From a virus (taxonomy: Duplodnaviria > Heunggongvirae > Uroviricota > Caudoviricetes): 6,252 nucleotides of DNA. The notes below the pieces were generated by a model. That model was not told the DNA's origin. It did not search any database and saw only the letters and a program-made list of their open reading frames with translations. Position numbers and translations under genes: made by a program. The stretch lies in the IMG/VR virus record IMGVR_UViG_2698536307_000011, one strand, 5' to 3'. Positions within the stretch are counted from its first letter, which is position 1. Each line of letters begins with the position of its first letter. Positions 440 through 900 of this stretch are shown here, piece by piece.

Positions 440-446
440 TTTCATA

Positions 447-475
447 TTGGCGAGGTAACGGTAGTTAAGTAGAAT
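447..475 (+). promoter_or_regulatory. Putative sigma70 promoter of the hok mRNA (-35 TTGGCG 447-452, 17-bp spacer, -10 TAGAAT 470-475)
   Basis: Spacing and hexamers seen directly; predicted start near 482-483 puts the transcript 5' end at GGGUGCUUGAGGC, which resembles the 5' end of plasmid R1 hok mRNA as I recall it. Confidence 0.5.
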
Positions 476-519
476 TGCTGCGGGTGCTTGAGGCTATCTG
501 CCTCGGGCATCAACACCAA

Positions 520-605
520 AGGCAGATAGAGAAAAGCCCCAGTTAACATTACGCGTCCGGCAAGACGCTTAACATTAATCTGAGGCCATATCTATGCTCT
601 ACACA
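520..605 (-). ncRNA. sok: Sok-like antisense RNA (approximate boundaries) opposite the hok leader and mok-like start
   Basis: By analogy with the R1 hok/sok architecture, the antisense RNA overlaps the leader and upstream start region. A candidate minus-strand promoter exists (-35 TTGCCT at + coords 637-632, -10 TAACCT near 614-609). The leader contains the motif GGCAGATAGAGAAAAGCCCC (521-540), resembling the corresponding R1 leader element. Ends are not determined. Confidence 0.3.
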
Positions 606-650
606 CGTAGGTTAGCCTCTTACGTGCCGAAAGGCAAGGAGAAGCAGGCT

Positions 651-806
651 ATGAAGCAGCAAAAGGCGATGTTAATCGCCCTGATCGTCATCTGTTTAAC
701 CGTCATAGTGACGGCACTGGTAACGAGGAAAGACCTCTGCGAGGTACGAATCCGAACCGGCCAGACGGAGGTCGCTGTCTTCACAGCTTACGAATCTGAG
801 GAGTAA
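651..806 (+). CDS. hok: Hok/Gef-family type I toxin (51 aa; MKQQKAMLIALIVICLTVIVTALVTRKDLCEVRIRTGQTEVAVFTAYESEE)
   Basis: Translation matches the Hok/Gef family (HokD/RelF-like) closely as recalled. SD GGAGAAG lies upstream of ATG 651. An in-frame upstream ATG at 594 gives the 70-aa track ORF, so the mok-like leader frame here is in frame with hok. Confidence 0.9.
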   Translation: MKQQKAMLIALIVICLTVIVTALVTRKDLCEVRIRTGQTEVAVFTAYESEE

Positions 807-874
807 GAGACCCGGCGGGGGAGAAATCCCTCGCCACCTCTGATGTGTCAGGCATTCTCAACGCACCCGCATTT

Positions 875-900
875 AACCCGCTTCGGCGGGTTTTTGTTTT
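875..900 (+). terminator. Rho-independent terminator ending the hok mRNA
   Basis: Stem AACCCGC (875-881) / GCGGGTT (886-892) with a UUCG tetraloop, followed by a T-run at 891-900. Confidence 0.8.

What the first reader, a model, noticed from the sequence alone, without database searches (positions are those of the whole stretch)
440..900. Complete hok/sok-type locus with long-range 5'-3' complementarity and an in-frame mok-like leader
Promoter, leader, Hok coding sequence and terminator are all present. The predicted mRNA 5' end (TGCGGGTGCTTGAGG, 479-493) is nearly complementary to a 3' UTR segment (CTCAACGCACCCGCA, 857-871) with a one-base bulge, as expected for fold-back inhibition. Unlike the R1 paradigm as I recall it, the upstream ATG at 594 is in frame with hok, so translation from it would give an N-terminally extended 70-aa Hok.
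Basis: partly seen in the sequence, partly recalled or inferred. Interest (0 to 1): 0.45.

Follow-up and report, generated by a model that had tools for sequence, protein, structure and literature searches.

The report
Known prophage hok/sok toxin-antitoxin locus
This is an intact copy of the well-known hok/sok RNA-controlled toxin-antitoxin module (the hokD/hokW type) on a Qin-like E. coli prophage.

Summary
Window 447-899 contains a complete hok/sok-family type I toxin-antitoxin locus:
- a promoter and a roughly 415-nt hok mRNA;
- a 51-aa Hok/Gef toxin (RefSeq calls it HokD);
- an upstream mok frame (ATG 594) in frame with hok, giving 70 aa;
- a convergent antisense Sok gene (about 602 to 532, minus strand);
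- the alternative RNA helices of the R1 paradigm (tac/fbi, ucb/mok-SD, tac/ucb, SD/dcb).

The 5'-3' pairing is real. It is conserved in position across 53 relatives and shows compensatory changes (U-A 27 versus C-G 22 at one pair). The transcript probably starts at G482, not 479, so the in-RNA helix is 482-493 with 856-868.

The in-frame mok does differ from R1, where the offset is 58 nt. It is not unusual, though. K-12 mokC/hokC and phage 933W mokW/hokW are annotated in frame, and so were 34 of 62 non-redundant leaders sampled here.

The locus is 94% identical to hokW/sokW, an experimentally validated toxin-antitoxin pair. It is 100% identical to loci in 12 listed RefSeq E. coli records. K-12 hokD is the 5'-truncated remnant of this arrangement.

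Verdict: already known, low interest. One side note is a conserved, mostly unannotated 29-30-aa hydrophobic ORF directly upstream.

The parts
447..475 (+). hok/mok mRNA promoter: -35 TTGGCG (447-452), 17-nt spacer, -10 TAGAAT (470-475)
   Evidence: Consensus scan. Both hexamers are invariant in 5 phage relatives. A -10-like hexamer sits at the equivalent position in the R1, 933W and hokC-type loci.
482..899 (+). Full-length hok mRNA, about 415 nt. The 5' end is inferred at G482; the 3' end lies in the T run after the terminator.
   Evidence: The Rfam model starts at 482. G482 is 7 nt from the -10 hexamer, and the R1 +1 aligns to 483 (PMC9841398). Terminator. The ends are inferred, not measured.
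482..493 (+). tac element: the 5'-terminal GGGUGCUUGAGG, which pairs either with fbi or with ucb
   Evidence: Pairs with 856-868 in the MFE of the full-length RNA. Pairs with 534-540 in the RNAalifold consensus. The core GCTTGAGGC is conserved across the family.
494..529 (+). 5' hairpin (GCUAUCUGCC / GGCAGAUAG) that stacks under either tac helix
   Evidence: There are compensatory changes at alignment columns 14-63 (AU:30, UA:14, GU:7).
534..540 (+). ucb (anti-SD, AAGCCCC): sequesters the mok SD in the closed form and pairs with tac in the open form
   Evidence: The unpaired probability of the mok SD is about 0 in the full-length fold. The SD/ucb helix is 86% paired across 53 sequences, against 23-45% when slid, with AU:29 versus GC:21 at a flanking pair. 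tac/ucb is 99% paired.
582..585 (+). mok Shine-Dalgarno sequence GAGG, 8 nt before ATG 594
   Evidence: Read from the sequence. Aligns with the R1 mok SD G105-G108.
594..806 (+). mok reading frame, 70 codons, in frame with hok and sharing its stop codon
   Evidence: ORF list. 93% identical to the annotated MokW of 933W. The exact protein is in NCBI on 217 contigs.
615..619 (+). dcb (GCCUC): pairs with the mok SD in the open, Sok-accessible form
   Evidence: 87.5% paired across 53 sequences. Lies in the nearly invariant TAGCCTCTTAC block.
637..641 (+). hok Shine-Dalgarno sequence AGGAG, 9 nt before ATG 651
   Evidence: Read from the sequence. Homology with K-12 hokD begins here.
651..806 (+). 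hok toxin CDS, 51 aa (HokD/HokW type)
   Evidence: Pfam PF01848 at 2.9e-23. PHROG 251 at 6e-33. RefSeq WP_000813255.1, named HokD.
814..835 (+). Stable 3' UTR stem-loop (GGCGGGGGA-GAAA-UCCCUCGCC), the presumed stop point for 3' exonucleolytic trimming
   Evidence: Present in all folds. Covaries in relatives (columns 374-399). Its role is inferred from the R1 model (PMC9841398).
856..868 (+). fbi element (UCUCAA-C-GCACCC), complementary to tac with C862 bulged
   Evidence: Lies 44-57 nt after the stop codon in most relatives. Covariation.
875..899 (+). Rho-independent terminator of hok mRNA (stem 875-892, then a T run)
609..637 (-). Sok promoter on the minus strand: -35 TTGCCT (637-632), 17-nt spacer, -10 TAACCT (614-609)
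   Evidence: The hexamers are identical to those of 933W sokW and align with the K-12 sokC and R1 Sok promoters. The generic promoter scan did not call it, because the -10 matches only 3 of 6.
532..602 (-). Sok antisense RNA, about 71 nt: a 15-nt single-stranded 5' tail covering the mok AUG, a long hairpin covering the mok SD, and a UUUU 3' end
   Evidence: Coordinates transferred from the annotated sokW of 933W and sokC of K-12. Fold of -29.7 kcal/mol, z = -5.3.

Best explanation
The locus is an intact hok/sok-family type I toxin-antitoxin module of the hokD/hokW lineage. It sits as a moron in a Qin-like lambdoid prophage of E. coli.

Proposed mechanism, by homology with R1 hok/sok and 933W/Sp5 hokW/sokW:
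1. A constitutive promoter (447-475) makes a stable mRNA of about 415 nt.
2. In the full-length RNA the 5' end (tac, 482-493) is clamped to fbi (856-868). The mok SD (582-585) is buried by ucb (534-540), so neither mok nor hok is translated and Sok cannot bind.
3. Slow 3' trimming back to the 814-835 stem-loop removes fbi. tac then pairs with ucb, and the mok SD is presented in a hairpin with dcb (615-619).
4. While the prophage is present, the unstable antisense Sok RNA of about 71 nt (602 to 532, minus strand) pairs with the mok translation-initiation region, and the duplex is cleaved.
5. If Sok is depleted, ribosomes start at mok AUG 594. That translation opens the hok start, so the 51-aa membrane toxin is made. 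Because mok is in frame here, a 70-aa extended form is made as well.

What is shown here: the sequence elements, their homology, the conservation and covariation of the helices, and the energetic plausibility of the switch. What is inferred: the transcripts, the processing, the toxicity and the biological role.
For: - Rfam RF01794 scores 114 bits (gathering score 59) over 482-656.
- Pfam HOK_GEF 2.9e-23; PHROG 251 'MokW-like host killing' 6e-33.
- 100% identical loci are annotated hokD in RefSeq. Related loci occur in 4728 of 5426 complete E. coli genomes.
- 94% identical to 933W, which has annotated mokW, hokW and sokW in the same geometry. MokW is 93% identical in protein.
- hokW/sokW was shown experimentally to be a toxin and an RNA antitoxin. 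Figure legends of that paper report RNase III and Hfq dependence and Northern blots of both RNAs (PMC8621323).
- tac/fbi: used in the MFE fold; 85% of cells paired, against 35-56% when slid; U-A 27 versus C-G 22 at one pair. In a bulge-adjusted register the further compensatory changes are G-C 35 versus A-U 9, and one G-C to A-U.
- ucb/SD: 86% paired, with covariation at flanking pairs.
- tac/ucb: 99% paired, and picked by RNAalifold.
- SD/dcb: 87.5% paired.
- Constrained folding: the closed form is favoured by 10 kcal/mol in the full-length RNA, but by only 1.5-2.5 kcal/mol after 3' truncation.
- The Sok promoter hexamers are identical to those of sokW, and the Sok fold has z = -5.3.
Against: - Nothing here measures transcription, processing, toxicity or antidote activity for this allele.
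- The Sok -10 hexamer (TAACCT) matches the consensus poorly and was missed by the generic scan.
- ViennaRNA does not choose the open form as the MFE of the truncated RNA.
- With the likely start at 482-483, the single-sequence significance of tac/fbi is only moderate (14 and 86 of 3000 shuffles).
- A recent preprint summarises earlier work in which chromosomal hokA, hokB and hokC loci did not mediate post-segregational killing (10.1101/2025.08.07.668861). Being intact in sequence therefore does not guarantee that function.
- The window's fbi has a U at 856 where most relatives have C, giving a terminal G-U.
Confidence: 0.9

Rival explanations
1. A sequence-intact but functionally silent relic. 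Like the chromosomal hok loci of K-12, this copy would no longer kill or stabilise anything and would simply be carried along with the prophage.
For: Earlier work summarised in 10.1101/2025.08.07.668861 found that chromosomal hokA, hokB and hokC loci do not mediate post-segregational killing. K-12 hokD lacks the whole 5' control region. K-12 hokC has IS186 abutting its 3' end and has lost fbi. The Sok -10 hexamer is weak.
Against: Every element is present here and none is disrupted. The helices are under conservation with compensatory change. The 94%-identical hokW/sokW is active (PMC8621323). The allele is 100% conserved in 12 listed RefSeq records from different hosts.
Confidence: 0.07
2. 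The 70-aa in-frame product is the real, or a second, effector. Ribosomes starting at AUG 594 would make an N-terminally extended Hok that is itself toxic, so translational coupling to the internal hok AUG would be dispensable in this allele class.
For: mok and hok share frame and stop codon. This arrangement is the commoner one in the sample, 34 of 54 leaders that have a mok. The 19-residue leader is similar across in-frame alleles.
Against: The frame flips between 57 and 58 nt in alleles about 95% identical, through single-base indels, which argues against selection on the fusion protein. The hok SD (637-641) and AUG 651 are invariant. In R1 the act of translating mok matters, not its product (PMC9841398). 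The leader codons also lie under the dcb element and the Sok promoter, which could explain their conservation.
Confidence: 0.03

Closest known systems
hokW/mokW/sokW of Stx2 phage 933W / Sakai prophage Sp5
   Same: 94% DNA identity over window 463-878. The geometry is identical: a 70-aa in-frame Mok, a 51-aa Hok, an antisense Sok of about 71 nt ending 8 nt inside mok, and the same Sok promoter hexamers. It is prophage-borne and has been validated experimentally as a type I toxin-antitoxin pair (PMC8621323).
   Different: The Sok 5' tail and mok start region differ at several bases (GUAGAGCAUAGAUAU here, GUUCAGCAUGGAUUG in 933W). The Hok C-terminus differs (TAYESEE here, VDYESEK in 933W). The sequence after fbi differs. 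The phage context also differs: near the right end of 933W, but between the early region and rem/DUF968/rusA/Q here.
hokD (relF) of the Qin cryptic prophage, E. coli K-12
   Same: Same neighbourhood, with a rem-like gene, DUF968/ydfU and Q downstream. About 99% DNA identity from the hok SD (about 636) through the terminator and beyond. Hok differs by one residue, S49 here and P49 in K-12.
   Different: K-12 has relBE in place of everything upstream of the hok SD, so it has no promoter, tac, ucb, mok or sok. The window carries the complete, self-regulated form.
hokC (gef)/mokC/sokC of E. coli K-12
   Same: mokC is in frame with hokC and shares its stop codon (69 and 50 aa). sokC is annotated antisense across the mokC start. 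The tac, ucb and dcb blocks are conserved, and Hok is 84% identical.
   Different: It is chromosomal rather than prophage-borne. The leader lacks the 18-nt insertion that lengthens the Sok hairpin here. In K-12 the fbi is lost next to IS186.
hok/mok/sok of plasmid R1 (the paradigm)
   Same: Same order of elements, the same tac core, and the same alternative helices tac/fbi, ucb/SD, tac/ucb and SD/dcb (PMC9841398).
   Different: Hok is only 45% identical. mok is in the +1 frame, with a 58-nt offset. tac position 3 and its fbi partner are C-G rather than U-A, and there is no bulged C. R1 is plasmid-borne and functions in post-segregational killing.

Membership tests
[quoted passage not shown] | Toxin of about 50 aa in the Hok/Gef family (Pfam PF01848), with an N-terminal transmembrane helix and a conserved TRK-LCE motif | tested here: met
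   Pfam 2.9e-23, 81.6 bits against a cut-off of 22. PHROG 251 at 6e-33. RefSeq names it HokD.
[quoted passage not shown] | Leader RNA matches the family covariance model above the curated threshold | tested here: met
   RF01794 scores 114 bits against a gathering score of 59, E = 3.5e-26, full model 1-157 over 482-656. The model is in the hok-mRNA sense despite its name.
[quoted passage not shown] | Upstream overlapping mok frame with its own SD, starting about 57-58 nt before the hok AUG and reading through it | tested here: met
   GAGG at 582-585 and ATG at 594, 57 nt before ATG 651, with the ORF running to 806. Homologous to annotated mokW and mokC.
[quoted passage not shown] | Cis-encoded antisense Sok gene with its own promoter, complementary to the mok translation-initiation region | tested here: met
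   TTGCCT-17-TAACCT lies at 637-609 on the minus strand. These hexamers are identical to those of 933W sokW and align with the sokC and R1 Sok promoters. The predicted 71-nt RNA folds as a tail, a hairpin and a U tract. The generic promoter scan missed it, so the feature is met by homology only.
[quoted passage not shown] | Long-range tac/fbi pairing between the mRNA 5' end and the 3' UTR (fold-back inhibition) | tested here: met
   Present in the MFE fold. 85% paired across 53 relatives, against 35-56% when slid. Compensatory U-A (27) versus C-G (22), with further G-C versus A-U changes.
[quoted passage not shown] | Mutually exclusive ucb/mok-SD (closed) and tac/ucb plus SD/dcb (open) helices | tested here: met
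   Constrained folds show that removing fbi cuts the cost of the open form from 10 to 1.5-2.5 kcal/mol.
[quoted passage not shown] | 3' exonucleolytic processing of the full-length mRNA to a translatable truncated form | not testable with these tools
   Only the stable stem-loop at 814-835, which could stop trimming, is visible. Truncated hokW RNAs are mentioned for the 94%-identical locus (PMC8621323, Fig. 4 legend).
[quoted passage not shown] | Hok is toxic and Sok neutralises it | not testable with these tools
   Shown for hokW/sokW (PMC8621323), not for this allele.
hokD locus of Qin-type prophages | Position upstream of rem / DUF968 (ydfU) / Q in a dicA-dicC type lambdoid prophage, with near-identity to K-12 hokD | tested here: met
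   Context. About 99% identity to K-12 from 636 onward. Unlike K-12, the 5' control region is present.
R1 hok/sok sensu stricto | mok in the +1 frame relative to hok (58-nt offset), on a plasmid, with the R1 Hok sequence | tested here: not met
   The offset is 57 nt, in frame. Hok is 45% identical. The context is a chromosomal prophage. The locus belongs to the family but is not the R1 orthologue.

The most novel reading that the evidence does not exclude
In alleles such as this one, where mok is in frame, the 70-aa Mok-Hok fusion would be a functional toxin isoform in its own right. In-frame loci (34 sampled) and +1 loci (17 sampled) would then be two mechanistically distinct sub-classes of hok/sok. 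In addition, the conserved 29-30-aa hydrophobic ORF at 347/350-439, which is followed by a hok leader in 94 of 102 viral-contig instances, might be a functional partner of the module, such as a second membrane peptide or a modulator.
Probability: 0.07. Interest if true: 0.4.

Novelty: already known. Interest (0 to 1): 0.08.

Why it matters
It matters little for discovery. The hok/sok family, its fold-back inhibition, the covariation of its helices and the in-frame mok of chromosomal and phage copies are all in the literature and in database annotations.

The practical value is for annotation. RefSeq marks only the 51-aa hokD CDS here. The mok frame, the Sok RNA and the RNA control elements can be added with the coordinates given. 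The window also shows what the truncated K-12 hokD looked like before relBE replaced its control region.

The small survey of mok frames and the conserved upstream mini-ORF are minor leads.

Tried and rejected
- The Rfam 'sok' hit on the minus strand (443-540, 19.5 bits, E = 0.44) is noise. The real hit is on the plus strand because the model is built in the hok-mRNA sense.
- The generic promoter scan found no minus-strand promoter. The Sok promoter had to be placed by alignment to annotated sokW and sokC.
- Plain MFE folding of 3'-truncated RNAs did not give the textbook open form. It gave a local 5' hairpin (483-494 with 500-511) and kept the SD on ucb. I therefore compared constrained folds instead.
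- MAFFT put the 5' half of fbi one column out of register in relatives that lack the bulged C, which depressed the pair counts. I recounted in a bulge-aware register in Python.
- R1 accession KY749247 is not in the plasmid collection. An R1-like IncFII plasmid with an identical Hok turned out to have an in-frame mok. True R1 leaders were recovered from contaminant contigs L078-L080.
- The weak isrK-like hit over the hok 3' UTR (815-896, 25.8 bits against 50) is rejected as a chance resemblance between terminator hairpins.

Full report
**What is in the window**

The 6.25-kb window is part of a Qin-like lambdoid prophage of E. coli. It is 100% identical to the chromosomes of 12 listed RefSeq records (C7, D1 and others). 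In strain C7 the neighbours run in this order: dicA, dicC, a ydaT-like gene, DUF977, a SMEK-domain gene, a methyltransferase, then hokD, two small hypothetical genes, DUF968, rusA, Q, three tRNAs, a TerB-family pseudogene, DUF3927 and a SASA esterase. My own scans agree: DUF968, RusA and antiterminator Q by Pfam, and three tRNAs plus STnc100 by Rfam.

**Checking the observation**

- A sigma-70-like promoter, TTGGCG-17-TAGAAT, lies at 447-475. A terminator stem at 875-892 is followed by a T run.
- ORF 651-806 encodes a 51-aa Hok/Gef protein (Pfam 2.9e-23; PHROG 251 'MokW-like host killing').
- ATG 594, preceded by GAGG at 582-585, is 57 nt upstream of the hok ATG and in the same frame, giving 70 codons.
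- 479-493 is complementary to 857-871 with C862 bulged. Minimum-free-energy folding of the transcript uses exactly this pairing.

G482 lies 7 nt after the -10 hexamer and is where the Rfam model starts. The mapped +1 of R1 aligns to 483 (the numbering in PMC9841398 puts G4-C5-U6 in the GCUUGAGG core). The helix inside the RNA is then 482-493 with 856-868.

I tested the pairing against dinucleotide shuffles of the 3' UTR. The 482-493 segment is matched 14 times in 3000, and 483-493 86 times. Taken alone, the complementarity is suggestive but not overwhelming.

**Evidence from relatives**

A scan of one genome per species with a Hok alignment returned 79 loci from Escherichia, Shigella, Kluyvera, Photorhabdus, Pantoea, Citrobacter, Enterobacter and others. 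The tac core GCTTGAGGC lies 137-170 nt upstream of hok in most of them. The best 3' UTR partner lies 44-57 nt after the stop codon in most.

On a 53-sequence alignment, the tac/fbi helix is paired in 85% of cells, against 35-56% when the 3' partner is slid. One pair splits U-A 27, C-G 22, U-G 2. In a register that allows for the lineage-specific bulge, two further positions show compensatory change: G-C 35 versus A-U 9, and one G-C to A-U.

The other helices of the R1 folding pathway are also there.
- ucb/mok-SD is 86% paired, with AU:29 versus GC:21 at a flanking pair.
- tac/ucb is 99% paired, and it is the helix RNAalifold chooses for the alignment.
- SD/dcb is 87.5% paired.

tac position 3 is the one that covaries with fbi, and it is the unpaired position in the tac/ucb stem. 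That fits a 5' end shared between two partners.

Constrained folding of the window's RNA shows that the closed form is favoured by 10 kcal/mol in the full-length transcript. After removal of fbi (3' end at 838-845) it is favoured by only 1.5-2.5 kcal/mol. This is the expected direction for a processing-triggered switch. ViennaRNA does not make the open form the MFE, however.

**The antisense gene**

Phage 933W is 94% identical over window 463-878. It carries annotated mokW, hokW and a sokW misc_RNA. With no indels in between, sokW maps to window 602 to 532 on the minus strand. The K-12 sokC annotation maps to the same place.

Upstream of that start, on the minus strand, are TTGCCT (637-632) and TAACCT (614-609). 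These are identical to the 933W hexamers and align with the R1 and sokC promoters. The generic scan did not report this site, because the -10 matches only 3 of 6.

The predicted 71-nt RNA has a 15-nt unstructured 5' tail covering the mok AUG, a long hairpin covering the mok SD, and a U tract (-29.7 kcal/mol, z = -5.3).

**How it most likely works**

By homology with R1 (summarised in PMC9841398) and hokW/sokW (PMC8621323), the steps are as follows.
1. The full-length mRNA is inert, because tac/fbi closes the molecule and ucb hides the mok SD.
2. 3' trimming to the 814-835 stem-loop removes fbi.
3. tac moves to ucb, and the mok SD is exposed in a hairpin with dcb.
4. Sok binds there and the duplex is cleaved.
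5. If Sok decays, mok is translated and hok translation follows.

Shown here: the elements, their homology, conservation and covariation, and the energetic plausibility. Inferred: the transcripts, the processing, the toxicity and the role in the prophage. For Sp5, hokW/sokW was reported to aid phage release after mitomycin C.

**The in-frame mok**

There the mok A is at 116 and the hok A at 174, an offset of 58 nt, and genuine R1 leaders in my sample give MSSPHQDSLLPRFAQGEEGHETTT in the +1 frame.

The in-frame arrangement is nevertheless old news.
- K-12 mokC (16751-16960) and hokC (16751-16903) share a stop codon.
- 933W mokW and hokW do the same, and the record's note calls MokW similar to 'Gef+leader protein'.
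- The exact 70-aa protein of this window is in NCBI on 217 contigs.

Among 62 non-redundant leaders, 34 were in frame, 17 were +1, 3 had a 56-nt offset with a 19-codon ORF, and 8 had no mok; several of those 8 carry the relBE-type upstream sequence of K-12 hokD. The frame flips between alleles about 95% identical through single-base indels, for example AAAGG[T]CAAGG in phage Rac MN652886. It also flips among plasmids with identical R1 Hok. This fits the published view that the act of translating mok matters, not its product.

**Relation to K-12 hokD**

K-12 hokD matches the window at about 99% from the hok SD (about 636) through the terminator and into the rem region. Everything upstream is replaced by relBE. 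The window therefore carries the complete, self-regulated form of the locus that K-12 retains only as a fragment.

**Verdict**

This is a correct reading of an ordinary, already known element. Novelty: already known. Interest is low.

The most novel reading left open is that the in-frame 70-aa product is itself functional, or that the conserved upstream mini-ORF is a partner of the module. I give that about 7%.

**Side observation**

A 29-30-aa hydrophobic ORF (347/350-439) with an AGGAGG SD lies just before the hok promoter. It has no match in Pfam, PHROGs or NCBIfam and is unannotated in RefSeq strain C7. It is intact in 101 of 102 IMG/VR instances, which fall into 22 DNA variants, and its variable sites are mostly at third codon positions or give conservative replacements. 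Some GenBank records call it 'membrane protein'.

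Noticed in passing
window 347/350-439 (+): A 29-30-aa hydrophobic ORF (VLVLKCALAIAAVMAIYCLAVVLMDHLSD) with AGGAGG 5-8 nt upstream lies directly before the hok promoter. It has no family hit and is unannotated in RefSeq C7. It is intact in 101 of 102 viral-contig instances (22 DNA variants), with variable sites at codon positions 3/1/2 numbering 10/7/4 and conservative replacements. In 94 of 102 instances a hok leader follows. Some GenBank records call it 'membrane protein' (APK03751.1).
   Followed up: partly
window 482-656 (+): The Rfam family RF01794, named 'sok antitoxin', matches the hok-mRNA sense strand and ends at the hok AUG. 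It models the hok/mok leader rather than the antisense RNA, so strand calls made from this family are misleading.
   Followed up: yes
window 594-650, compared with L002, L005, L009, L078: The mok frame relative to hok flips between close alleles through 1-nt indels, giving offsets of 57, 58 or 56 nt. Counts among non-redundant leaders were 34 in frame, 17 at +1 and 3 at offset 56. Plasmids encoding an identical R1 Hok protein differ in mok frame.
   Followed up: partly
window 3943-4189 (+): Three tRNA genes lie downstream of Q: Ile, Arg and Arg in the RefSeq annotation. This is the layout of Stx-phage late regions, but no stx genes follow. Next come a TerB-family pseudogene with an internal stop (about 4375-4803 by transfer from the strain C7 annotation; in-frame TAG near 4498) and a DUF3927/TciB-like 55-aa ORF (4791-4958).
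   Followed up: no
window 4963-5135 (+): A strong Rfam hit to sRNA STnc100 (100.8 bits against a gathering score of 47) lies upstream of the SASA/NanS-type esterase gene. The 3' part of the model is poorly matched.
   Followed up: no
L078-L080, L011, L029, L037: R1-identical hok/sok sits on short contigs assigned to Streptomyces morookaense, a Ferruginibacter MAG and an Oscillibacter MAG. E. coli-type hokD sits on contigs assigned to a Veillonella MAG, Acinetobacter idrijaensis and Xanthomonas pisi. These are most likely contamination by E. coli or vector DNA.
   Followed up: no
L004 / L028 (K-12-type hokC): IS186 abuts the 3' end of hokC, and the fbi partner of tac is missing there. This acted as an internal negative control for the tac/fbi search.
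   Followed up: partly
window 915-944 (+): A second promoter-like site, TTGAAG-18-TAGAAT, lies just after the hok terminator and before the rem-like 87-aa ORF (1024-1287; PHROG 340). It is conserved in K-12 Qin.
   Followed up: no
window 532-602 (-) versus L007 370-440: The single-stranded 5' tail of Sok, and so the mok start region, differs at several bases between this allele and 933W sokW, while the hairpin and promoter are the same. Genomes carry a median of 2 and up to 10 hok-like places. Divergence in the tail could limit cross-talk between copies.
   Followed up: no
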